A stretch of 35,774 bases of DNA from a virus (Duplodnaviria; Heunggongvirae; Uroviricota; Caudoviricetes). A program made the position numbers and the translations under genes. The stretch's first letter is position 1. The number at the start of each line of letters is the position of its first letter. A model generated the notes under the pieces. The model was not told where the DNA came from and ran no database searches. It saw only the letters and a program-made list of their open reading frames with translations. Positions 1-28,781 of this stretch are shown piece by piece. The stretch lies in the IMG/VR virus record IMGVR_UViG_2534681674_000025; one strand, given 5' to 3'.

Positions 1-1002
1 TTACCCTCTATTGTCAAAAGGGTTCAATTCAACAGCAGCCTCTAAATGACCTGGAGCAAAATGCGCATAACGCATAGTCATTTTTATATCGCTATGCCCC
101 AGTATTTTTTGCAACACAAGAATATTTCCGCCCCGCATCATAAAATGACTGGCAAACGTGTGACGTAGCACATGAGTTAATTGCCCATCAGGAAGCTCGA
201 TCTTCGCTCTCTTAATTGCAGCGTCAAAAGCCTCATAACATGGTGAAAATAGCGCTCCTCGTTTTTTAGGAAGCATAGCCTGCAATTGAGGTGAAATCGG
301 TACAGTGCGGTTCTTCTTTCCTTTAGTTTTAACAAATGTGATTCGACCGGGCAGTACTTGAGATTGCTTTAATCCTTCTGCTTCACTCCACCGAGCACCC
401 GTCGCAAGCCCAATACGGACAACAACCCCCAAATCTTTATTCCGTGACTCATCACACGCAATCAGAAGGCGTTCAATCTCATCTACATACAGAAACGCCA
501 GTTCCTTTTCTTCCTCACGAAACTTGCGAATACCAGTCAGGGGGTTTTCACCAGACCACTCCCCAAGGCGCTTCAGTTCGGCAAAAACAGCATGTAGATA
601 TGACTGCTCGCGATTAACGGTTGCTTCACTAAGTTTTTTCTTCCCCTTGGGATTCCATTCTCCTGATAGCCTTCTTTCCCGATAAGTAGCAAACATATTT
701 TTGTCAAACTGAGAAGCAAATGGATCTCCCAGCCTGGAACAAATCGCCTCAAGTTTGACTTTGCGCTCTGCACCAGAGGACAAGGTTTTACCGTACATCT
801 CAAACCAACGAGCAATCAACTCAGAAAGACGAGGACCAGAACCATCTTGAAACTCGTCTCCAACTCTACTATTCATTAAACGGCGCTCATAAGAGAGCGC
901 CTCACTTTTTGTCGCAAACTGTTTACGAATGCGTTTTCCCGATGCCCCGTAGGGATAACATTCGCAAAGCCATTTACCTGATGGAATCTTACGAACCGAC
1001 AT
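1..1002 (-). CDS. int: Tyrosine recombinase / phage integrase (333 aa)
   Basis: C-terminal catalytic region HVLRHTFASHFMMRGG...LGHSDIKMTMRYAHF with the R..H..R..Y signature of tyrosine recombinases; sits at the prophage edge next to the repressor region as in P2. Confidence 0.93.
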   Translation of the reverse strand: MSVRKIPSGKWLCECYPYGASGKRIRKQFATKSEALSYERRLMNSRVGDEFQDGSGPRLSELIARWFEMYGKTLSSGAERKVKLEAICSRLGDPFASQFDKNMFATYRERRLSGEWNPKGKKKLSEATVNREQSYLHAVFAELKRLGEWSGENPLTGIRKFREEEKELAFLYVDEIERLLIACDESRNKDLGVVVRIGLATGARWSEAEGLKQSQVLPGRITFVKTKGKKNRTVPISPQLQAMLPKKRGALFSPCYEAFDAAIKRAKIELPDGQLTHVLRHTFASHFMMRGGNILVLQKILGHSDIKMTMRYAHFAPGHLEAAVELNPFDNRG

Positions 1003-1007
1003 TTTAG

Positions 1008-1355
1008 TTACTTATCACATAAATCAAATGCAGCCTTAGTGACATCCCCCAGACTCTTTTTTAACCCTGGGGCGGCATCATTATCTAGCCAAAATGGATT
1101 ATTGTTATCTAACGGTAACGCACCAAATGTTTTACCTTTTATTCGAGCCAAACCTGTAAGTGCATATAACTTATTATCGTCAAAATTCATCACATAAGGA
1201 TTACCATCAAGACACTGTAATTGAACCTCATCAGTATTAAATGGCCATACCCCATTGAAACTCTCACGTTCAATAGTTTTAAAAGGCATTGCGACGGCGG
1301 AAAAAGAAAACATAGATAAAAAAGTAACTAATAGTTGAACCTTTTTTACTTTCAT
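1008..1355 (-). CDS. Secreted periplasmic protein, DUF2511/YebY-like (115 aa), cargo
   Basis: N-terminal signal peptide (MKVKKVQLLVTFLSMFSFSAVA), two conserved Cys, DNNNP motif recalled from YebY-like proteins; RBS GAGGTAA upstream; local AT-rich composition. Confidence 0.6.
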   Translation of the reverse strand: MKVKKVQLLVTFLSMFSFSAVAMPFKTIERESFNGVWPFNTDEVQLQCLDGNPYVMNFDDNKLYALTGLARIKGKTFGALPLDNNNPFWLDNDAAPGLKKSLGDVTKAAFDLCDK

Positions 1356-1384
1356 ATCATTACCTCAATTTAGCTCAAGTAAGA

Positions 1385-2035
1385 TTACAAATTAAAAAAC
1401 GCCCTAGAAATGACACCGCCTACCAAAACCCCTACGCAGATAAAGAATATTATTTCTTTTGGATAAAGTCGGATTAATTCTGAAGCACGAAGTCGGACTT
1501 CTGGTAAGGTCGAACTCTCTGTGTGGCTTGATGCCGATTGTTGCTCTAACCACGACAATGCAGACTGTAACTGAGAACGAGTAAGATCGTTTAAACGTCC
1601 TGTACCGAAATTGATATGGCAATACCGCAGAAGTTTTTGTCGAAGTCCACAGTCTTCACTGTTACGTAGTAATAAACTTACAAGAGCCTTACAGGCATCA
1701 TGATCTTTACATCGCTCAAGCATTGCATGCAGAAAACTCTCCGCTGTTTTATATTGATTTACTGTCATATCATCAATACCAGCTACACCAATCTCCGCAT
1801 GTACTTTTTGCCAAATAATAAACGCTTCAGTATTGCTAGCTTCTGCAATAGCAGCAACCAAGCTATTTAGCTCCTTACGCTGAGCCTTAAGCAAAGGGCG
1901 ATCGTCATCATCATTATTCGAAGGGATTGCGATATTGACGGTCTGAGAACCATCATATCGCTCTATCTGAATATTCTTTTCGTGAAAATCACGCCCAGCA
2001 ACGCGATTGTTTGAACCGTTTGAGTTGACGGCCAT
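1385..2035 (-). CDS. Hypothetical C-terminally membrane-anchored protein (216 aa), cargo
   Basis: Complete ORF 15 bp downstream of the repressor gene; single C-terminal hydrophobic helix (IIFFICVGVLVGGVISRAFF); N-terminus shares the motif NNR[IV]AGRD[FY] with the repressor C-terminus. Confidence 0.7.
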   Translation of the reverse strand: MAVNSNGSNNRVAGRDFHEKNIQIERYDGSQTVNIAIPSNNDDDDRPLLKAQRKELNSLVAAIAEASNTEAFIIWQKVHAEIGVAGIDDMTVNQYKTAESFLHAMLERCKDHDACKALVSLLLRNSEDCGLRQKLLRYCHINFGTGRLNDLTRSQLQSALSWLEQQSASSHTESSTLPEVRLRASELIRLYPKEIIFFICVGVLVGGVISRAFFNL

Positions 2036-2050
2036 GTCACCTCCCTACTA

Positions 2051-2455
2051 TCACCTACCCTTAGTTTCGTTATAGTCACGACCAGCGATACGGTTATTAC
2101 CACCAGAAATATTTAACTCACGTCCTGATGGCTGAGTTTCCTTTTCACTGATCGCACCTTTTAAAGCCCCAATCACCGCATTTTTCACATCTAACGAAGC
2201 TGCTCGAAAGCGAGTAATCAACTCCTGCTCATCATCGTTATAAGTTTCAGGTGAGTGAATTCCCAACACAACATACTGAACATCAAGGCCAAAACGAGAC
2301 AGCGCTGCCAAATACGCAGCATCAGGAAAGCTATCTCCTTTCTCATATCTAAGCTGAGTTAGCTTTTTGACTCCACCAATGTCGCTCATGGCAACTTGAC
2401 TAAGTCCCAATCTTTCCCTTTCCTCACGCAACCGCTGACCAATATCATTTTTCAT
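2051..2455 (-). CDS. XRE-family helix-turn-helix immunity repressor (C / CI analogue, 134 aa)
   Basis: N-terminal HTH (QRLREERERLGLSQVAMSDIGGVKKLTQLRYEKG); divergent from the early operon across a promoter/operator region, as P2 C is from cox. Confidence 0.85.
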   Translation of the reverse strand: MKNDIGQRLREERERLGLSQVAMSDIGGVKKLTQLRYEKGDSFPDAAYLAALSRFGLDVQYVVLGIHSPETYNDDEQELITRFRAASLDVKNAVIGALKGAISEKETQPSGRELNISGGNNRIAGRDYNETKGR

Positions 2456-2530
2456 ACAAAAACCTTGACAGGTATCTTTTTTGATACCAAAATGATTTCA
2501 CGAGCTATTAGATGATCACAATATACCACT
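2456..2530. promoter_or_regulatory. Divergent early promoter/operator region (lysis-lysogeny switch)
   Basis: TTGACA (2465-2470) followed 17 nt later by CAAAAT (2488-2493) on +; perfect inverted repeat GGTATC-N6-GATACC (2471-2488) overlapping the spacer, a likely operator. Confidence 0.45.
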
Positions 2531-2737
2531 ATGAAACAAGTTCTTCACGATACCAGATCACGCATTCCGCGTAACACCGCCACAGGTCCAAGACTGGCAC
2601 TTCGGCTGTCCCTCGAGGAGCGAGCCGTCATTGATGAAATGGCAGCTAAAGAACAACGCTCATCCTCTAACATGGCGCGCATGATCTTCCTTCGCGGCCT
2701 AGAGCTAACCCAGAAAGAACAAAACAAATCTTCCTGA
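2531..2737 (+). CDS. Small ribbon-helix-helix-like DNA-binding protein (68 aa), first gene of early operon
   Basis: RLALRLSLEERAVIDEMAAKEQRSSSNMARMIFLRGL fits a beta-strand/helix/helix RHH pattern; position equivalent to a Cro/Cox-type early regulator. Confidence 0.55.
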   Translation: MKQVLHDTRSRIPRNTATGPRLALRLSLEERAVIDEMAAKEQRSSSNMARMIFLRGLELTQKEQNKSS

Positions 2738-5027: not shown

Positions 5028-7850
5028 ATGACGGCAGAGTACATCAGGGACTGGCAACAACCGCGCCACGCAGTGGGGCGTGAAGGAACGGGGATCCCCG
5101 CTCCTGAATCCGCGCTTTCCTCCTGGCTGGATGCCTACCGGGCAGAGAACGAGCGCCGCCAGGAAATGGCTGATGCGGCGTTCTCCGCCACGCCGCTGGG
5201 CAACCTGATTAATAAAAGCCTGGACGCACAGGAAAAACAGGACAAAACAATCACACTGGCAGGAGACGCCAGAAAACAGGCACGCGGCGCGGTAGATGAG
5301 GCCATGGCCTCACTGCGCCTGCTGCCGTCCTATCTGCGCGATCCGCTTATTCGCCACCTCTCCTTCCTGCGCAAAAAACAGGAAGCCGATCGTCAGAAAG
5401 GAAAAAACGCCAGGCAGGCAGAACGCTATGCGCGTGGGACCCTGCGCAAAATATTCGAACGTCTGGAGCGCACCGATCACCGCTGGCTGACATCGGGTTA
5501 TCGCTCCCTTGCCGGACGTGAACGCCTGGACGATTTGCTTTACCTGCCGCAACTCAACAAACACCAGATACAGACGCTGGCCACCATGACGGCGGCGATG
5601 TTCAGCAGCACCTTCGAAAAACTCTGCGATGGTTTTGGCGCGACTGATGGCGAGCTGACCATGGATGTAACGCTGAAGGCGTATCAGATGCTGGCCCGCA
5701 TGGCGTTACACTTACACGCCATGCCTCCGCATTATGACGCACTGACAACAGACAAAGACCGGAGGCACGAACCGGACACAGAACTGCTGCCGGGCGCAAT
5801 CCTTCGCCTGACCTGTGCGGAATGGTGGAAACGCAAACTGTGGCTGTTACGTTGCGAGTGGAGAGAAGAACAACTCCGCGCCGCCTGTCTGGTTTCCAGA
5901 AAAACATCGCCCTATCTGAGCCAGGACGCGTTAAGCGAGTTTCGCGCACAGCGCGAGAAAACACGCGATTTCCTGAAAAGTTTCATGCTGGAAAATGAAG
6001 ACGGGTTCACGATTGATCTCGAGACGGTGTATTACGCGGGAGTAAGTAACCCGGTTCACCGTAAGGCAGAAATGATGGCCACCATGAAGGGGCTGGAACT
6101 TCTGGCCGAAGCCCGTGGCGACAAAGCGGTGTTTCTGACTGTCACCTGCCCGTCAAAATACCACGCCACAACGGAGAACGGTCATCCGAATCCCAAATGG
6201 AACGGGGCCACAATGCGCGACTCCAGCGATTACCTGGTTAACACGTTTTTTGCGGCGGTCCGCAAAAAACTGAACCGCGACGACCTGCGCTGGTATGGCA
6301 TCCGCACGGTGGAGCCTCATCATGACGGCACCGTGCACTGGCATATGATGGTCTTTGCACATCCGGAAGAAATCGACACCATTGTGTCCCATACCCGCGA
6401 TATTGCCATTCAGGAAGACCGCCACGAGCTGGGCAATGATATTACTCCGCGCTTTAAGGTGGAGTATGTCGACGGCTCAAAAGGCACGCCAACCAGCTAC
6501 ATCGCCACCTACATCGGAAAGAACCTGGACAGCCGCGCCGTGGATGGCATCGACCCGAAAACGGACAAGCCACGCGTGGACCACGAAACCGGAAAATCAA
6601 TGGCCGAGAGCGTGGAACGCGCCATCGGCTGGGCGCGTCTTCACCGCGTCCGCCAGTTCCAGTTCTTTGGTATCCCCCCCCGTCAGGTATGGCGTGAACT
6701 CCGCCGCCTTGCCAGTCAGATGGCCCGCAACCCGGAAGGTCCACAACGTCTGGAAAATGACGCAATGGATACGGTACTCGCTGCCGCTGATGCCGGGTGT
6801 TTTGCCACCTACATTGAGAAACAGGGTGGCGTACTTGTTCCACGCAAAGACTACCTGATTCGCACCGCCTACGACCTCGCAGAAGAGCTGAACGATTACG
6901 GCGAGCAAAGCGTACAGATTTACGGGATCTGGTCGCCACAAATCGGGGAATCTTCCCGCGTGTGCACGCACCCGGATAACTGGAAGCTGGTAAGACGTAA
7001 ACCGGAAGCGGAAGACAGCGCCCGCGAAAATGGTTTTGACCTTCAGGGCGGCCCTGCCGCCCCTTGGACTCGTGGCAATAACTGTCCCCGTGTACAGGAA
7101 ACGGACAACAACGGGACAGAACAGCCGGAAGAACGGCCAGCACCGTGGCCGCAGCTCCCTGACGGCGTTGAAGTGAACGAATGGATGCGCTCACTGAAAC
7201 GGCACGAACGCCGGGCGCTGATGCGTTCGCTTCGTGACAAACAGGCAAAAAACAGCAGTGATGAAGCGCAGAGCTGGACACAGAGCCGCAAACAGCAGCG
7301 GCCTTTGCCTGATAACCACGAATTACTCGCTAAAGAATGGCGGGAGTCTGCTGAATCTCTCGGCCTGCATATCGGTGAACAACAGATGCAGCACCTGTTA
7401 CGGGGCGGCAGTCTGTACGTTGACGGCAGCATCATTGCACCGCAGGGATTTGAAATTGTACGCAAACCGGATACCCGCCTGGACAGCCGAATCACGCAGC
7501 TCTGGCAGCGCCTGAGCCGTAATCATGGCGTAAGCAGCACGGAGATCCGCCATAACCCGGTCGCCAGCTATCTGGCACAGCTGGGGGCATCAGACCCTGA
7601 AGCCGCCGCACGCCTGGCATCCACACTTCAGCAGGACCAGAACACCATGAAAACACCCGTTACCGTGCTTTCTGACATGCTGCGCGCCATCCGCGACGCA
7701 GAGCACGCACAGAGAATCAGTGAAACCACTGAACGCGCCAGCCGCAAAGCAGACCTGCTGCGGGGTGGCCTGACCAGTGGAAACAAAAAACAGACAGAAA
7801 CGGGACTCACAAATCCCGTAAATGAGCAAAAAACGCGCCGCGATATATGA
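5028..7850 (+). CDS. A: Rolling-circle replication initiator endonuclease (P2 gpA family, 940 aa)
   Basis: Large protein at the end of the early operon with an HWHMMVF HUH-type motif typical of the phage GPA family; longer than P2 A (about 760 aa as recalled). Confidence 0.85.
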   Translation: MTAEYIRDWQQPRHAVGREGTGIPAPESALSSWLDAYRAENERRQEMADAAFSATPLGNLINKSLDAQEKQDKTITLAGDARKQARGAVDEAMASLRLLPSYLRDPLIRHLSFLRKKQEADRQKGKNARQAERYARGTLRKIFERLERTDHRWLTSGYRSLAGRERLDDLLYLPQLNKHQIQTLATMTAAMFSSTFEKLCDGFGATDGELTMDVTLKAYQMLARMALHLHAMPPHYDALTTDKDRRHEPDTELLPGAILRLTCAEWWKRKLWLLRCEWREEQLRAACLVSRKTSPYLSQDALSEFRAQREKTRDFLKSFMLENEDGFTIDLETVYYAGVSNPVHRKAEMMATMKGLELLAEARGDKAVFLTVTCPSKYHATTENGHPNPKWNGATMRDSSDYLVNTFFAAVRKKLNRDDLRWYGIRTVEPHHDGTVHWHMMVFAHPEEIDTIVSHTRDIAIQEDRHELGNDITPRFKVEYVDGSKGTPTSYIATYIGKNLDSRAVDGIDPKTDKPRVDHETGKSMAESVERAIGWARLHRVRQFQFFGIPPRQVWRELRRLASQMARNPEGPQRLENDAMDTVLAAADAGCFATYIEKQGGVLVPRKDYLIRTAYDLAEELNDYGEQSVQIYGIWSPQIGESSRVCTHPDNWKLVRRKPEAEDSARENGFDLQGGPAAPWTRGNNCPRVQETDNNGTEQPEERPAPWPQLPDGVEVNEWMRSLKRHERRALMRSLRDKQAKNSSDEAQSWTQSRKQQRPLPDNHELLAKEWRESAESLGLHIGEQQMQHLLRGGSLYVDGSIIAPQGFEIVRKPDTRLDSRITQLWQRLSRNHGVSSTEIRHNPVASYLAQLGASDPEAAARLASTLQQDQNTMKTPVTVLSDMLRAIRDAEHAQRISETTERASRKADLLRGGLTSGNKKQTETGLTNPVNEQKTRRDI

Positions 7851-24335: not shown

Positions 24336-24936
24336 TTCACTGTTACCACCATCAGCCAGCAATTTCATGCGTTGTGCCGAAGCCGTCGGAACACGCATTA
24401 CAGACATTCCGGTAGACCTCAACACGCTGTGGTCGCCGGACACCTGCCCGGTGCATCTGCTGCCTTATCTCGCCTGGGCGTTTTCCGTTGACCGCTGGGA
24501 TCGCAACTGGCCGGAAGAGACAAAGCGACAGGTAATTCGTGATGCATGGCTGACACACCGACACAAAGGGACCATCAGCGCACTGCGAAGAGCCGTGGAG
24601 CCTCTCGGCTACCTGATTGAAGTAAAGGAGTGGTGGCAACTCAACGAGGAGCCAGGAACATTTCGCATTGTTGTCGGAGTACTTGATCAGGGCATCACCG
24701 ATGAAATGTATCAGGAACTTGAGCGCCTTATTGCGGATGCAAAACCAGTAAGTCGCCATCTGACGGGGCTGGCGATCAGCCTGAGTGTGAACGGAAAGAT
24801 TTTCGTTGGTACGGGATGCTATCACGGCGATGCCCTGACGGTTTATCCCTACACCCCGGAGTCCATTATTGTCGAAGGGGATTATTTCCCTGCCCCGGCC
24901 ATTCATTTAATTGATAATCTGAGAGTAAACGCATGA
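24328..24936 (+). CDS. I: Baseplate/tail protein, gpI homologue (202 aa)
   Basis: ATG at 24328 overlapping the J stop; position before tail-fibre gene H. Confidence 0.85.
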
Positions 24937-26936
24937 CAGTGAAATACTACGCCATTCTGACTAATCAGGGCGCGGCACGACTGGCTAACGCGACGATGCT
25001 CGGCAGTAAGCTGAATCTGACGCAAATGGCCGTTGGTGATGCAAATGGTGTGTTACCAACACCAGACCCTGCACAAACAAAACTGATTAACCAGAAACGC
25101 ATTGCACCGCTGAATCTTCTGAATGTTGACCCTAACAATCAGAGCCAGATTATTGCGGAGCAAATCATCCCTGAAGACGAGGGAGGATTCTGGATCCGTG
25201 AGATTGGTCTTTATGATGATAAAGGTGTACTCATTGCGGTGGCAAACTGCCCGGAAACGTACAAACCGCAGTTGCAGGAAGGCAGTGGACGCACCCAGAC
25301 TATCCGCATGATTCTGGTTGTCACGAACACCAAAGCCATCACGCTGAAAATCGACCCGTCTGTGGTTCTGGCAACCCGCAAATATGTGGATGATAAAATC
25401 TCAAAGCACGAGCAGTCACGACGTCACCCGGACGCCTCACTGACCGCAAAAGGCTTTGTTCAACTCAGTAGCGCCACCAACAGCGATTCAGAAACGCTGG
25501 CGGCAACACCAAAGGCGGTAAAGGCAGCCTATGACCTTGCTAACGGGAAATATACCGCACAGGACGCCACGACAGCACAAAAAGGCATTGTCCAGCTCAG
25601 TAGCGCCACCAACAGCGATTCAGAAACGCTGGCGGCAACACCAAAGGCGGTAAAGGCAGCCTATGACCTTGCTAACGGGAAATATACCGCACAGGACGCC
25701 ACGACGGCACAAAAAGGAATTGTCCAGCTCAGTAGTGCAACCAACAGCACATCTGAAACGCTTGCTGCAACACCGAAAGCAGTGAAAGCAGCTAATGACA
25801 ATGCGAATGGTCGGGTACCTTCTGCCCGTAAGGTGAATGGTAAGGCGCTTTCGGCGGATATAACACTGACGCCGAAAGATATTGGTACGCTTAACTCAAC
25901 AACAATGTCATTCAGCGGTGGTGCTGGTTGGTTCAAATTAGCAACGGTAACCATGCCACAGGCGAGTTCTGTTGTTTCAATTACGTTGATTGGTGGCGCT
26001 GGATTTAACGTCGGTTCACCTCAACAGGCAGGTATATCTGAACTTGTTTTGCGTGCAGGTAATGGTAATCCGAAGGGGATTACTGGTGCTTTATGGCAGC
26101 GCACATCGACAGGGTTTACAAATTTTGCCTGGGTCAATACATCTGGTGATACTTACGATATTTACGTTGCAATCGGAAATTATGCGACTGGTGTAAATAT
26201 TCAATGGGATTATACCAGTAATGCCAGCGTGACGATTCATACGTCACCAGCATATTCTGCTAATAAGCCGGAAGGGTTAACGGACGGTACAGTTTATTCA
26301 CTCTATACGCCATCAGAGCAGTTTTATCCGCCTGGCGCACCAATCCCGTGGCCATCGGATACCGTTCCGTCTGGTTATGCCCTGATGCAGGGGCAGACTT
26401 TTGACAAATCTGCCTACCCGAAACTTGCAGCCGCTTATCCGTCAGGCGTGATCCCTGATATGCGTGGCTGGACGATTAAGGGCAAACCCGCCAGTGGCCG
26501 GGCCGTATTGTCTCAGGAACAGGACGGCATTAAATCGCACACCCACAGCGCCAGCGCATCCAATACGGATTTGGGGACGAAAACCACATCGTCGTTTGAT
26601 TACGGTACTAAAACGACCAGTTCATTTGATTACGGCACAAAAACCACAAATAGCGCAGGAGCTCATTCACACAATATACCTGTTGGTCACACTGGCGCGG
26701 GGAATGGTGTATCAGCCGGTTATAACGCTGCGTTAGGTACTGGTACCACGTCGAGCGCAGGAGAGCATGCTCACAATGTATATATCGGTGCCCATAACCA
26801 CACTATCGGCATTGGTGCTCATGCCCATTCTGTCATTATTGGTCCCCACGGACACACCATCACCGTTAATGCTACGGGGAACGCAGAAAACACCGTAAAA
26901 AACATCGCATTTAACTATATTGTGAGGCTTGCATAA
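24933..26936 (+). CDS. H: Tail fibre protein, gpH homologue (667 aa) with internal tandem repeats and His-rich C-terminal domain
   Basis: Conserved N-terminus [20 protein letters not shown]...; three 44-aa collar repeats ([23 protein letters not shown]); C-terminal [10 protein letters not shown] repeats and HxH motifs. Confidence 0.9.
25455..25810 (+). repeat. Tandem 132-bp coding repeats inside H (two near-identical copies plus a diverged third)
   Basis: Copy 1 at 25455-25586 and copy 2 at 25587-25718 are nearly identical at DNA level; copy 3 (25719-25810) is diverged. Confidence 0.85.
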
Positions 26937-27514
26937 TGACATTCAGAATGAGTGAACAATCACGGACCATAAAAATTTATAATCTACTGACCGGAACCAA
27001 TGAGTTTATTGGTGAAGGTGATGCATACATTTCACCTCATACAGGTCTGCCTGCAAACAGTACCGATATTGCCCCGCCAGATATTCCGGCTGGCTTCGTG
27101 GCCGTTTTCAACAGTGATGAGGCATCGTGGCATCTCGTTGAAGACCATCGGGGTAAAACGGTTTATGACGTGGCATCAGGGGACTCGTTATTTATTTCTG
27201 AACTCGGTCCGTTACCGGAAAATGTTACCTGGTTGTCGCCGTATGGAGAGTATCAGAAGTGGAACGGCACATCCTGGGTGAAAGATGCAGAAGCAGAAAA
27301 ACTATTTCGGATAAGGGAGGCGGAAGAAACAAAAAACAGCCTGATGCAGGTAGCCAGTGAGCATATTGCACCACTTCAGGATGCTATAGATTTAGATATT
27401 GCGACGGAGGAAGAGACATCGTTACTGGCTGCATGGAAGACATATCGAGTATTGTTGCATCGTGTTGATACAACAGTAGCAGCAGATATTGAGTGGCCAG
27501 TCGCCCCACAATAA
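26936..27514 (+). CDS. G: Tail fibre assembly chaperone, gpG/Tfa homologue (192 aa)
   Basis: Directly downstream of H with TAATG overlap; size near P2 gpG. Confidence 0.85.
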
Positions 27515-27520
27515 AAAGAA

Positions 27521-27550
27521 AAAGCCATCGATAGAAATATCGATGGCTTT
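27521..27550. terminator. Bidirectional rho-independent terminator between convergent G and acetyltransferase genes
   Basis: Perfect 13-bp stem AAAGCCATCGATA / TATCGATGGCTTT with GAAA loop; T-rich tail on the minus strand. Confidence 0.7.
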
Positions 27551-27557
27551 ATGTACT

Positions 27558-28130
27558 CTATTTATACAATACAGCACCGCTCTTTTTAGTTATATATGTG
27601 CAGTTCGATGGTATATCTTTATTTATAAAAGACATTGCACCTATTTTTACATTATCCCCAATTTTACGGGATAATCCAATGATGCAACAATTAGCTCCGA
27701 TATCAACGTTGCTACCAATTTTTACTCTTGAACCAGGTATGTCACCATCTATCTGTCCAATGGTCGTATTCTGTCGTAACACCAGATTTTCACCAGCATC
27801 AACAGCAAAATGAACAACAATTCCAGCATGATGGGGAATTGTTAACCCTTTTCCAATATTTGCGCCCAATCCAATTTCGCAACCAAATTTGTTAATTATT
27901 TTACTGTTTAACTTCTTGGCTGCTTTCTTATGTAATTTATTACCATTAATATACATTTCGTTAGCCAACCGCCACCAGAAAAGGAAATTCCTGTTACGCT
28001 GCTTTTTCTCTCTTAAAAGCCTCCAGATATCCATACGTTTCCGCCGAATTACTTCATGTTTCCAGAAGTTTTTTAAATTAGTAGAGTTCCCAAATAAAAC
28101 AAAGTGAATTGCCATTAGGTAAGACAGCAC
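27558..28130 (-). CDS. Hexapeptide-repeat (left-handed beta-helix) acetyltransferase, CysE/NodL/NeuO-like, in an AT-rich island (190 aa from GTG 28130; longest ORF to 28163)
   Basis: Hexapeptide repeats (IGANIGKGLTIPHHAGIVV, IGSNVDIGANCCIIG, IGDNVKIGAMSFI); RBS AAGGAG 6 nt before GTG; strongly AT-rich relative to flanking phage genes. Confidence 0.8.
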   Translation of the reverse strand: MLSYLMAIHFVLFGNSTNLKNFWKHEVIRRKRMDIWRLLREKKQRNRNFLFWWRLANEMYINGNKLHKKAAKKLNSKIINKFGCEIGLGANIGKGLTIPHHAGIVVHFAVDAGENLVLRQNTTIGQIDGDIPGSRVKIGSNVDIGANCCIIGLSRKIGDNVKIGAMSFINKDIPSNCTYITKKSGAVLYK

Positions 28131-28286
28131 GATAATCTCCTTAATTATTATTTCAGACCACACATGTTATAAGGTTAAGAGATTATAAAATCCTGTTGTT
28201 TATTATTCAAAAACAATTTTCTGAGAAGGACATACAACAGCAAGTCGCCAGTCACCTTCATCAGGAAATTGGCGACATACGTTAAA

Positions 28287-28781
28287 TCAGAGCAGCCCCT
28301 TAACTGAGCTGGCCGCGCTATTAAGGGATGATGTCACCTTATCTTTGAAGCCGGACAACATATCGCTGAACGATGAGGATTGCAGGCGCTCCCGCAAATC
28401 CTCATCACAGCGTTCAAGAGTCAGTGAAAATTCTATCTTTTTCGCCTTACCGTAGCGATCAAACTCGGAACGGGTCGTATTCGTTTCAGTCAGTACATAC
28501 ATGCCGTAAATCTGCCCGACACCATCAATCAGAGGCCAGGGCCGTCCTGTATATGCCTGCGTGGTCAGCAATGAAAGCGACACTTCGCCACCTGTAATTT
28601 CAGGATAAAGCACGCCGGAAAGCACAATGAGATCATCACCTGCACCGATATACTGCCAGCTTGCTGAACGGTTAACGCGTTCATTTTTCACATGCCGCCA
28701 GCTTTTGTTTTGCTGTAACTGCTGATGCGGCAATGTGCGCAGCTCAAAAACAAACATGCCGTAGATCATCATCATGACCAT
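28287..28781 (-). CDS. U: Tail protein U homologue (164 aa)
   Basis: SWRH...LSGVLYPEITGGEVSLSLL...RSEF matches gpU as recalled; follows the tape-measure gene. Confidence 0.85.
   Translation of the reverse strand: MVMMMIYGMFVFELRTLPHQQLQQNKSWRHVKNERVNRSASWQYIGAGDDLIVLSGVLYPEITGGEVSLSLLTTQAYTGRPWPLIDGVGQIYGMYVLTETNTTRSEFDRYGKAKKIEFSLTLERCDEDLRERLQSSSFSDMLSGFKDKVTSSLNSAASSVKGLL

What the first reader, a model, noticed from the sequence alone, without database searches (positions are those of the whole stretch)
1008..2035. AT-rich two-gene cargo between the integrase and the immunity repressor
Canonical P2 has int directly next to C. Here two extra co-directional genes sit between them: a signal-peptide-bearing DUF2511/YebY-like periplasmic protein and a 216-aa C-terminally anchored membrane protein. 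Composition is visibly more AT-rich than the phage backbone. Being expressed with the repressor in the lysogen, envelope-located products at this position are candidates for superinfection exclusion or lysogenic conversion.
Basis: partly seen in the sequence, partly recalled or inferred. Interest (0 to 1): 0.5.

Follow-up and report, generated by a model that had tools for sequence, protein, structure and literature searches.

The report
Repressor-linked membrane partner plus swappable periplasmic gene
The two genes between the integrase and the repressor of this P2-like E. coli prophage are different things: one is a replaceable periplasmic cargo gene, while the other is a membrane-anchored protein that always travels with this type of repressor and shares a short end-motif with it, which suggests an undescribed repressor-to-membrane link.

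Summary
Both ORFs are real. They lie in one leftward operon: repressor (2051-2455), 216-aa protein (1385-2035), DUF2511 protein (1008-1355), integrase (1-1002). The window is the CP-933T-type P2-like prophage next to yecA, and the same block is in 506 of 5426 complete E. coli genomes.

The "two-gene cargo" reading is half right.
- **DUF2511/YebY-like gene: true cargo.** It is the most AT-rich (35% GC). Its product has a signal peptide and is detected in published O157:H7 proteomes. In related prophages the same slot holds at least 12 unrelated gene families, or nothing.
- **216-aa protein: not cargo.** It has one Flk_N domain and a C-terminal tail anchor, so most of it faces the cytoplasm. In about 110 loci it, or another membrane protein, directly follows this XRE repressor family. 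This holds in P2-like and Mu-like prophages, from E. coli to Pseudomonas.
- **Shared motif.** The repressor's C-terminal tail (NISGGNNRIAGRDYNE) and the partner's N-terminus (SNGSNNRVAGRDFHE) carry the same N/G-rich motif. Motif subtypes co-vary between partners (p about 1e-4). Synonymous sites differ, so selection acts on the protein.

Best reading: the membrane protein is a partner of the repressor. How the link works (sequestration, amyloid-like signalling or abortive infection) is inferred. No function has been tested for either gene.

The parts
2051..2455 (-). XRE-family HTH protein (134 aa) at the position of the immunity repressor (P2 C equivalent); first gene of the lysogenic operon
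2066..2113 (-). Repressor C-terminal tail motif NISGGNNRIAGRDYNE
   Evidence: Coordinates checked by translation. The motif is present on nearly all close repressor homologues (strict pattern in 30, and one-residue variants in most others, of 120 listed) and in variant forms on distant ones. pLDDT is below 50 in the monomer model.
1385..2035 (-). 216-aa tail-anchored protein with one Flk_N domain; the conserved partner of the repressor
   Evidence: phrog_5825 E 7e-103. NCBIfam Flk partial match E 8e-16. PF27202 Flk_N on its homologues. BLASTP to K-12 Flk E 2e-10. Always immediately downstream of the repressor gene.
1979..2023 (-). N-terminal motif SNGSNNRVAGRDFHE of the 216-aa protein, the same type as the repressor tail
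   Evidence: Translation checked. The strict motif is at residue 10 in 113 of 120 homologues. Co-variation with the cognate repressor tail. Synonymous sites are diverged: 35 of 78 identical-residue codons use the same codon.
1520..1900 (-). Flk_N helical domain (residues 46-172)
   Evidence: AF2 pLDDT about 88, five helices. Aligns to both repeats of E. coli Flk.
1400..1459 (-). C-terminal tail anchor (KEIIFFICVGVLVGGVISRA)
   Evidence: Hydrophobic terminal segment conserved in the family. AF2 helix 192-215. Flk is an experimentally established tail-anchored protein (PMC6794478).
1008..1355 (-). DUF2511/YebY-like periplasmic protein (115 aa); the variable cargo gene
1290..1355 (-). Signal peptide of the DUF2511 protein (MKVKKVQLLVTFLSMFSFSAVA, A-V-A cleavage motif)
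1..1002 (-). Tyrosine integrase; last gene of the operon
   Evidence: Pfam Int_N E 5e-32 and Phage_integrase E 3e-22. Next to yecA in the genomes that match.
2465..2493 (+). Early promoter-like site: TTGACA, 17 nt, CAAAAT
   Evidence: Promoter scan, 10 of 12 matches. The same architecture is conserved in P2-like and Mu-like relatives.
2471..2488 (.). Palindrome GGTATC-N6-GATACC filling the promoter spacer; candidate operator of the repressor
   Evidence: GGTA...TACC palindromes lie at the same place in 12 of the 16 loci for which the scan returned an upstream region; the other four carry different palindromes there. Inferred, not tested.

Best explanation
The interval is part of a four-gene lysogenic operon, repressor > 216-aa protein > DUF2511 > integrase. 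It contains two different kinds of gene.

(1) The 216-aa protein is a cytoplasm-facing, tail-anchored inner-membrane protein built from one Flk_N domain. It is a fixed partner of this XRE repressor family rather than cargo. The two proteins carry the same short N/G-rich motif on their abutting ends, the repressor's C-terminal tail and the partner's N-terminus. The most likely working principle is a direct motif-to-motif (homotypic, probably beta-strand) association. This would tie the repressor to a membrane-anchored protein, much as a membrane anti-sigma factor co-expressed with its sigma factor holds or senses it. The direction of control is not known: the membrane protein may sequester or modulate the repressor, or the repressor may control the membrane protein.

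(2) The DUF2511 gene is a true moron in a swappable slot between the immunity module and int. Its product is a Sec-exported, disulfide-bonded, YebY/MlbQ-fold periplasmic protein made in lysogens. Its function is unknown. By analogy with MlbQ it may bind a small envelope-active ligand.

Shown: gene order, homologies, linkage, motif sharing and co-variation, slot variability, expression of the DUF2511 protein and the repressor.
Inferred: physical interaction, membrane coupling, any phenotype.
For: Operon:
- Gaps of 15, 29 and 5 nt, RBSs GGGAGGTGA and GAGGTAA, and no minus-strand terminator-like site found between 2455 and 1.

Linkage:
- In Klebsiella and E. coli loci the Flk_N gene directly follows the HTH gene.
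- The same holds in 17 genome loci from Rosenbergiella to Pseudomonas.
- In a survey of about 110 loci, 109 Flk_N-type ORFs were found. In every locus where the upstream ORF was recovered, it is an XRE-HTH gene with the tail motif, at a gap of 0-18 nt (-4 to 32 nt in the Mu-like loci).
- The pair also occurs in Mu-like transposable prophages that have rve and AAA_22 genes.
- In L030, L031, L116 and L118 the partner has no recorded Flk_N domain but keeps the N-terminal motif and a membrane segment.

Motif:
- The strict pattern NRxAGRD[FY] is at residue 10 of 113 of 120 partners and about 13 residues from the C-terminus of the repressors.
- Subtypes match within pairs. Examples: GGVAARDIINN / GGVAGRDIVNQ, and FHGSVGQSVAGSITNKSGVTFNV / FHGEVGQAAGGDINNYGVNISFV.
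- Permutation tests: cognate sum 735 against 453 +/- 51 for 15 pairs (p about 1e-5). Within the 8 Mu-like pairs the exact fraction of permutations reaching the observed score is 1.5e-4.
- Only 35 of 78 identical-residue codons are the same codon, so conservation is at the protein level.
- Both motif segments are disordered in monomer models.

Homology and topology:
- Flk_N homology. Flk is tail-anchored and binds FlhA-C in a two-hybrid assay.

Cargo:
- At least 12 unrelated families occupy the slot.
- Klebsiella prophages at the same att site carry either a 288-aa BRCT-like gene or DUF2511.
- An E. coli variant at yecA carries a different 128-aa exported protein.
- DUF2511 is the lowest-GC gene of the block.
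Against: - No experiment or complex prediction shows that the two proteins touch.
- Shared ancestry of the two motif copies, through gene fission or duplication, could explain part of the within-pair similarity.
- The loci in the permutation test are not phylogenetically independent.
- The phage also encodes a separate 'derepression protein', so a second modulator of the repressor is not obviously needed.
- For DUF2511, no phenotype is known, and even YebY itself has no settled function.
Confidence: 0.6

Rival explanations
1. Amyloid-like signalling or abortive infection. The shared motif is a templating sequence of the HET-s/BASS kind. The repressor acts as the sensor (for example when displaced, titrated or attacked by an incoming phage or satellite). 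It converts the membrane protein into an oligomeric, membrane-damaging form, killing the cell or excluding the invader.
For: - Same logic as the E. coli prophage system Bab/Agp: adjacent collinear genes with the motif at the C-terminus of one product and the N-terminus of the next.
- Motif composition is N 3.2x, G 1.8x, with Q, I and V enriched, and L 0.14x, K 0.30x, P 0.40x. This matches the bias reported for BASS motifs.
- Length is about 16-26 residues, and both copies are disordered in monomer models.
- Pair-specific similarity.
- The middle domain of the partner is replaceable, while the motif and the membrane segment are kept.
Against: - The partners are not NLR/STAND or Bell/HeLo proteins.
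- The membrane protein is permanently anchored and is homologous to the non-toxic housekeeping protein Flk.
- The motif contains a conserved charged core (R-D-x-x-E).
- There is no PADLOC match.
- The background amino-acid frequencies used were approximate values from memory.
- Fibril formation cannot be tested here.
Confidence: 0.2
2. One reading: both genes are independent morons (lysogenic conversion or superinfection exclusion) that happen to sit between C and int.
For: - Both are absent from P88 and P2.
- The region is AT-rich.
- Both are co-transcribed with the repressor.
- Envelope-related products are typical of exclusion genes. The adjacent slot clearly accepts cargo.
Against: - The 216-aa gene never varies independently of the repressor family, across P2-like and Mu-like phages.
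- The shared, co-varying motif is unexplained by this reading.
- Its GC is like that of the repressor gene and int.
- Its bulk is cytoplasmic.
Confidence: 0.1
3. Flk mimic. The prophage protein acts like host Flk on a type III export gate (FlhA, or EscV of the LEE injectisome in EHEC) and so alters motility or virulence secretion in the lysogen.
For: - Flk_N homology and identical tail-anchored topology.
- Flk binds FlhA-C and holds the flagellar export apparatus in early mode.
- The prophage is common in STEC.
Against: - The score is far below the NCBIfam Flk cutoff (58 vs 353 bits), and there is one repeat instead of two.
- The module is abundant in Klebsiella pneumoniae (the index lists P0096 in 1158 blocks of the collection), which is classically non-flagellate (general knowledge).
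- In some loci the Flk_N domain is replaced by unrelated domains.
- This reading does not explain the motif shared with the repressor.
Confidence: 0.05
4. Historical relic. An ancestral HTH-motif-domain-TM protein was split by duplication and fission. The duplicated motif is a scar, kept for separate reasons in each protein (for example repressor self-association), with no contact between the two.
For: - The two ORFs are in the same frame in the window and, by hand count, in about two thirds of the 16 loci checked (coordinates).
- The motif lies exactly at the junction.
Against: - No fused form occurs among 232 repressor homologues or 194 partner homologues.
- Triple stop TGA TAG TAG in the window, and out-of-frame arrangements in 5 loci.
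- The motif is retained on non-homologous partners.
- Subtype co-variation persists over deep divergence even though synonymous sites are randomised.
Confidence: 0.05

Closest known systems
Flk (Fluke/RflH) of Salmonella and E. coli
   Same: Flk_N domain (PF27202 on homologues; NCBIfam Flk residues 18-149 matched, E 8e-16; BLASTP E 2e-10). Cytoplasmic body held on the inner membrane by a C-terminal tail anchor.
   Different: One Flk_N repeat instead of two. 216 vs 331 aa. Carries the N-terminal NRxAGRD motif that Flk lacks. Encoded next to a prophage repressor. Present in non-flagellate hosts. Score far below the equivalog cutoff.
YebY (E. coli AZY operon, PDB 7n0j) and MlbQ (lantibiotic self-resistance), Pfam DUF2511
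   Same: Family HMM above cutoff. Conserved Cys48-Cys113 pair. Signal peptide and periplasmic location.
   Different: Not in a yobA-yebZ-yebY copper operon. Belongs to a small prophage-borne subfamily (18 clusters) that was found only in the HTH-Flk_N-[slot]-int position in the loci examined. The JBC 2021 YebY paper already noted yebY homologues between a recombinase and a phage CI-type HTH gene in Enterobacteriaceae.
Amyloid signalling pairs: fungal HET-S/NWD2, bacterial BASS (Bell/NLR), E. coli prophage Bab/Agp (BASS11)
   Same: Adjacent collinear genes whose products share a short terminal motif of about 20 residues. N/G/Q/V/I-rich and K/P/L-poor. One partner is membrane-directed. Pair-specific motif similarity.
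   Different: The soluble partner is an HTH repressor, not an NLR or TPR sensor. The membrane partner is a constitutively tail-anchored Flk_N protein, not a Bell/HeLo pore former. The terminal polarity is reversed. Fibril formation is untested.
Membrane anti-sigma / sigma pairs such as RseA-sigmaE (analogy only, from general knowledge)
   Same: A DNA-directed regulator gene is followed by, and translationally coupled to, a single-pass membrane protein whose N-terminal cytoplasmic part is proposed to bind it.
   Different: No homology. The regulator is a repressor. Binding is inferred from a shared motif, not shown.
Repressor-operon morons: lambda rexAB; P2 old, tin, fun(Z) (general knowledge)
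   Same: Accessory genes expressed in the lysogen. AT-rich. Variable between related phages. This fits the DUF2511 slot.
   Different: The position between the immunity module and int is not one of the classical P2 moron sites. The exclusion phenotype known for rex/old/tin is not shown here. No PADLOC match.

Membership tests
Pfam PF10709 DUF2511 / YebY family | Match to the family HMM at or above the gathering score | tested here: met
   28.4 bits vs cutoff 21, residues 28-113 on profile positions 2-87 of 87. PF10709 precomputed on homologues.
Pfam PF10709 DUF2511 / YebY family | Two strictly conserved cysteines that form the Cys48-Cys113 disulfide | tested here: met
   Cysteines at positions 48 and 113 of the 115-aa protein. 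They align with the YebY cysteines. The disulfide is described in PMC8689200. Bond formation itself was not tested.
Pfam PF10709 DUF2511 / YebY family | Signal peptide and extracytoplasmic location | tested here: met
AZY (yobA-yebZ-yebY) copper operon member | Encoded with CopC/CopD homologues | tested here: not met
   The neighbours are the integrase and the Flk_N protein.
Flk_N domain family (PF27202) | Match to the Flk_N profile | tested here: met
   PF27202 is precomputed for P0001 (99% identical) and nearly all homologues, and is named Flk_N. The local Pfam copy lacks this model. BLASTP to both repeats of K-12 Flk gives E 2e-10 and 6e-7.
Flk orthologue (NCBIfam NF007987 equivalog) | Full-length score at or above the curated cutoff; two repeats; about 330 aa | tested here: not met
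   58.3 bits vs cutoff 353. Only profile positions 18-149 of 339 are matched. There is a single repeat.
Tail-anchored inner-membrane protein | A single hydrophobic segment at the extreme C-terminus and no signal peptide | tested here: met
   Residues about 194-210 of 216. Conserved in the family. AF2 helix 192-215. Membrane insertion itself was not tested.
Amyloid signalling motif pair (BASS/HET-s type) | The same short motif at the C-terminus of one product and the N-terminus of the adjacent, collinear gene's product | tested here: met
   Cognate-versus-permuted test.
Amyloid signalling motif pair (BASS/HET-s type) | N/G/Q/V/I-rich, K/P/L-poor composition; about 20-25 residues | tested here: met
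   (background frequencies approximate) compared with the description. Length 16-26 residues.
Amyloid signalling motif pair (BASS/HET-s type) | Association with an NLR/STAND-type sensor and a Bell/HeLo-type executioner | tested here: not met
   The partners are an XRE HTH protein and a Flk_N tail-anchored protein.
Amyloid signalling motif pair (BASS/HET-s type) | Fibril or prion formation and templating between the two motifs | not testable with these tools
   Needs peptide fibrillation, ThT/Congo red and GFP-foci assays as.
Phage moron / variable cargo | Presence/absence or replacement at the same position among closely related prophages, plus atypical composition | tested here: met
   Met for the DUF2511 gene only: at least 12 alternative families or an empty slot, same-att-site alternatives, 35.3% GC. 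For the 216-aa gene the same test is not met, because it is invariably linked to the repressor.
Known anti-phage defence system (PADLOC-DB v2) | Match to any defence-protein model | tested here: not met
   No family at E up to 0.1 for either protein.

The most novel reading that the evidence does not exclude
A widespread family of prophage immunity repressors, in P2-like and Mu-like phages of Gammaproteobacteria, is wired to a tail-anchored membrane protein through a shared self-templating (amyloid-like or beta-arch) end motif. The lysogeny switch, or a repressor-guarded suicide response, would then be controlled by motif-driven co-assembly at the inner membrane. This would be the first case of amyloid-type signalling built into a phage repressor, and it would give the first biochemical handle on the Flk_N domain.
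Probability: 0.25. Interest if true: 0.85.

Novelty: new variant of a known kind. Interest (0 to 1): 0.6.

Why it matters
This prophage sits in about 9% of complete E. coli genomes, including O157:H7 EDL933, yet neither gene has a known role.

If the repressor and the membrane protein are coupled through their shared motif, it would reveal a new way for temperate phages to connect the lysis-lysogeny decision, or a defence response, to the cell membrane. The module is reused by two unrelated phage types. It would also extend motif-sharing gene-pair signalling beyond NLR-type immune sensors, and it would suggest what the poorly understood Flk_N domain does.

The neighbouring slot is a small, previously unexploited hotspot in which to look for lysogen-expressed envelope or defence genes.

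Tried and rejected
- **Stop-codon read-through fusion of the repressor and the 216-aa protein.** Rejected. The ORFs are in frame in the window but separated by TGA TAG TAG, they are out of frame in 5 related loci, and no fused homologue exists.
- **DNA-level repeat or recent gene conversion as the cause of the shared motif.** Rejected. Synonymous positions differ.
- **Fold comparison.**
  - Foldseek against BFVD gave nothing at E up to 0.001; the best named hit was an ORF6C-domain protein at E 0.09.
  - afdb50 was unavailable.
  - None of this was used for functional inference.
- **PDB sequence search with the family profile.** Nothing.
- **PADLOC.** No defence model matches.
- **Deposited phage genomes.** Only the poorly assembled prophage record 520873 carries the module, so no studied phage can be used as a guide.
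- **Weak Pfam hits of the 216-aa protein** to zf-P11 and ELYS. Below cutoff and ignored.
Full report
**What is in the window.** The left end of the window carries four minus-strand ORFs in a row:
- a tyrosine integrase (1-1002);
- a 115-aa ORF (1008-1355);
- a 216-aa ORF (1385-2035);
- a 134-aa XRE-type HTH protein (2051-2455).

An Arc-like ORF (2531-2737), a Cox-like ORF (2754-2957) and a DUF4761 ORF lie on the other strand. The DNA is 100% identical to E. coli 2013C-3264 and 99.8% identical to O157:H7 EDL933, where it lies next to yecA. It is therefore the CP-933T-type P2-like prophage (genus Xuanwuvirus, P88-like). The block int-115aa-216aa-HTH occurs once per genome in 506 of 5426 complete E. 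coli genomes at 98% identity or more. P88 itself has int directly next to a different, 94-aa C protein.

**Operon structure.**
- The four genes are separated by 15, 29 and 5 nt.
- The 216-aa and 115-aa ORFs have strong ribosome-binding sites (GGGAGGTGA and GAGGTAA).
- The consensus scan found no terminator-like site on the minus strand between 2455 and 1, and only one weak internal promoter-like match.
- On the plus strand, a near-consensus promoter (TTGACA, 17 nt, CAAAAT; 2465-2493) has its spacer filled by the palindrome GGTATC-N6-GATACC (2471-2488).
- The same arrangement, with GGTA...TACC palindromes, recurs upstream of the homologous HTH gene in related P2-like and Mu-like prophages. The recognition helix of the HTH is nearly invariant among them.

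This supports, by inference, that the HTH protein is the immunity repressor acting on the early promoter.

**Composition.** The interval 1008-2035 is 39.1% GC against 52.6% for the whole window, in the lowest 1.6% of equal-sized windows.

| Gene | GC | GC3 |
|---|---|---|
| DUF2511 | 35.3% | 26.7% |
| 216-aa gene | 41.5% | 33.2% |
| Repressor | 43.7% | 34.8% |
| int | 45.0% | 37.1% |

The signal is uneven, and the whole early arm is AT-richer than the late genes. Only the DUF2511 gene stands out from its immediate neighbours.

**The DUF2511 gene is real cargo.**
- Identity of the protein:
  - It passes the Pfam DUF2511 threshold.
  - It belongs to phrog_2950.
  - It aligns to solved YebY with both cysteines conserved: Cys48 and Cys113, the disulfide pair described for YebY.
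- Evidence that it is made and exported:
  - It starts with a typical Sec signal peptide.
  - It was quantified in a ciprofloxacin proteome.
  - SignalP scores it as SPI, and it was recovered from the secretome in a T2SS-dependent way.
- Evidence that the slot is variable:
  - In related prophages the position between the 216-aa homologue and int holds at least 12 unrelated families, or nothing. Examples are a DUF8087 acidic protein, a 288-295-aa BRCT-like protein, a 291-298-aa protein, zinc-ribbon proteins, two-TM proteins and another exported protein.
  - Prophages at the same attachment site differ here. Klebsiella prophages at pgsA-uvrC carry either the BRCT-like gene or DUF2511. E. coli prophages at yecA carry DUF2511, DUF8087 or a 128-aa exported protein.
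  - The prophage-type DUF2511 subfamily is small (18 clusters). In the loci examined it is found only in this slot.
  - That yebY homologues can lie between a recombinase and a phage HTH gene was already remarked in the YebY structural paper.

**The 216-aa gene is not cargo.**
- What the protein is:
  - It belongs to phrog_5825.
  - It matches the N-terminal half of the NCBIfam Flk model (E 8e-16, far below the equivalog cutoff).
  - Its homologues carry Pfam PF27202, Flk_N.
  - BLASTP aligns it to both internal repeats of E. coli K-12 Flk.
  - Like Flk, an experimentally established tail-anchored protein, it ends in a hydrophobic segment.
  - AF2 models residues 46-172 as a confident five-helix domain, 192-215 as a helix, and 1-41 as disordered. 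About 190 residues therefore face the cytoplasm.
- The family:
  - An exhaustive search of 1.84 billion representatives finds only 92 clusters.
  - These split into chromosomal Flk (330-410 aa, two repeats) and a prophage type (185-215 aa).
- Linkage to the repressor:
  - In every related locus where the upstream gene was recovered, the gene lies immediately downstream of an XRE repressor of the same family as the window's. The gap is 0-18 nt and most often 9 nt (-4 to 32 nt in the Mu-like loci).
  - This covers Klebsiella, E. coli, Rosenbergiella, Mixta, Izhakiella, Enterobacter, Kosakonia, Yersinia, Hafnia, Serratia and Pseudomonas, plus 80 IMG/VR contigs.
  - The same pair also sits at the repressor position of Mu-like transposable prophages in Pectobacterium, Gilliamella, Pseudomonas and metagenomes.

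**A shared, co-varying end motif.**
- The repressor ends in ...NISGGNNRIAGRDYNETKGR, and the 216-aa protein begins MAVNSNGSNNRVAGRDFHE....
- The strict pattern NRxAGRD[FY] is at residue 10 of 113 of 120 partner homologues and about 13 residues from the C-terminus of the close repressor homologues.
- More distant repressors end in variants such as GQFAGNQIINN, GQIAGGNIY, GGVAARDIINN or FHGSVGQSVAGSITNKSGVTFNV. Their downstream partners begin with the matching variant: GQFSSRDIINI, EQIAGRDIY, GGVAGRDIVNQ, FHGEVGQAAGGDINNYGVNISFV.
- In four loci (L030, L031, L116, L118) the partner has no recorded Flk_N domain, but it still has the N-terminal motif and a membrane segment. The conserved features are therefore the motif and the membrane anchor.
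- Cognate tail/head pairs score higher than permuted pairs. For 15 pairs the sum is 735 against 453 +/- 51. Within the eight Mu-like pairs, the exact fraction of permutations reaching the observed score is 1.5e-4.
- The two coding copies use the same codon at only 35 of 78 identical-residue positions. The similarity is therefore kept at the protein level, not by a DNA repeat or recent conversion.
- Both motif segments are modelled as disordered in the monomers.
- There is no fused HTH-Flk_N protein among the homologues. The window has three consecutive stop codons between the ORFs.

**How it most likely works.**
- Shown: a conserved gene pair with translational coupling, a shared co-varying terminal motif, one soluble DNA-binding partner, and one partner held on the cytoplasmic face of the membrane.
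- Inferred: the two motifs pair with each other, so that the repressor is physically coupled to the membrane protein.
- Known homologue: Flk works by binding a cytoplasmic domain (FlhA-C) at the membrane and holding it in one state. This fits a tethered protein-binding role.
- Analogy: the gene order (regulator first, then a membrane protein with an N-terminal cytoplasmic binding region) resembles sigma/anti-sigma pairs. This is an analogy from general knowledge.
- Not decided: the direction of control. Possibilities are sequestration or release of the repressor in response to a membrane signal, or activation of the membrane protein when the repressor changes state.

**The amyloid-signalling reading.** Several features match those described for bacterial amyloid signalling sequences, and for the E. 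coli prophage Abi pair Bab/Agp:
- N, G, Q, I and V enriched, and L, K and P depleted (with approximate background values);
- a length of about 16-26 residues;
- terminal positions on adjacent collinear gene products;
- pair-specific similarity.

The partner domains differ (no NLR, no Bell/HeLo), and fibril formation cannot be tested here. I therefore keep this as the most novel reading not excluded, not as a classification.

**Other readings.**
- A Flk-mimic role on host type III export is unlikely to be general. The module is very common in Klebsiella pneumoniae, the Flk_N domain is replaceable, and such a role does not explain the repressor motif.
- A pure fission-relic explanation does not account for motif retention on non-homologous partners or for subtype co-variation.
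- Neither protein matches a PADLOC defence model.
- Fold searches gave only generic helical-bundle similarities.

**Novelty and verdict.**
- The prophage and its gene calls are known. The DUF2511 context has been noted in print, and its expression is documented.
- I found no description of the repressor/Flk_N pairing or of the shared motif in the searchable literature.
- Apart from one poorly assembled prophage record, the module is absent from 50,697 deposited phage genomes.
- I rate the finding a new variant of a known kind, namely motif-sharing adjacent gene pairs and repressor-operon accessory genes.
- The interest is moderate to high and rests on the inferred coupling. The original 'AT-rich two-gene cargo' claim is only half right.

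Noticed in passing
window 2465-2493 (+), palindrome 2471-2488; also L019, L024, L025, L028, L031-L034, L116-L119: The early promoter has an 18-bp palindrome (GGTA...TACC) exactly filling the 17-nt spacer between TTGACA and the -10. The architecture and the outer half-site bases are conserved between P2-like and Mu-like prophages from E. coli to Pseudomonas. The HTH recognition helix (GGVKKLTQLNYEKGE) is nearly invariant, which is unusual for immunity repressors. A few loci have other palindromes (GAGATC-N4-GATCTC; TGCGAAC-N4-GTTCGCA).
   Followed up: partly
window 2520-2528 (-): A candidate extended -10 (TGGTATATT) for the repressor-operon promoter lies inside the start of the Arc-like ORF. 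The surrounding CATAGTGGTATATTGTGATC is conserved in enteric P2-like relatives. It would face the early promoter.
   Followed up: no
window 2531-2737 (+) versus about 2545-2682 (-): RefSeq annotates a 45-aa hypothetical ORF on the minus strand here. However, the plus-strand 68-aa ORF matches PHROG phrog_3431 'Arc-like repressor' at E 1e-28. The early operon probably starts with an Arc-like protein followed by a Cox-like protein.
   Followed up: partly
window 27200-28400; ORF 27558-28163 (-): This is the second AT-rich island of the window (35-38% GC, the lowest in the window), just after the tail-fibre genes. It holds a 201-aa ORF with weak hexapeptide-repeat (acyl/acetyltransferase-like) matches that are below the Pfam cutoff. 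It is a likely moron at a classical P2 cargo position.
   Followed up: partly
window 24933-26936 (+): The 667-aa tail-fibre-like ORF contains a nearly perfect triplicated segment of about 45 residues (...[44 protein letters not shown]...), and further short repeats near the C-terminus.
   Followed up: no
window about 5140-5370 (+) (L003 9135-9365; EDL933_RS34525): A 'derepression protein' gene (PF25738-type) is preceded by a gap of about 320 nt in the early region. It may be a Tum/epsilon-like antirepressor and so a separate induction route.
   Followed up: no
L001 (NC_049344.1, Escherichia phage 520873) 2040-3080: The only deposited phage record with this module has frameshifts. Its integrase is split in two, and the DUF2511 and Flk_N genes are unannotated and matched only in pieces.
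   Followed up: partly
L005 6647-7513, L017 5629-6507, L019 5657-6532 and relatives: Alternative cargo in the same slot includes a 288-295-aa protein with an N-terminal BRCT domain and weak WYL-like similarity, and a 291-aa protein with a weak match to PADLOC candidate PDC-S48 (E 1e-8). The slot may therefore collect defence-related genes.
   Followed up: partly
L029 3926-5591 (Pseudomonas carbonaria): Here the HTH protein carries two motif copies and is followed by two motif-bearing membrane proteins in a row: a 152-aa Cys-rich protein and a 199-aa Flk_N-like protein.
   Followed up: no
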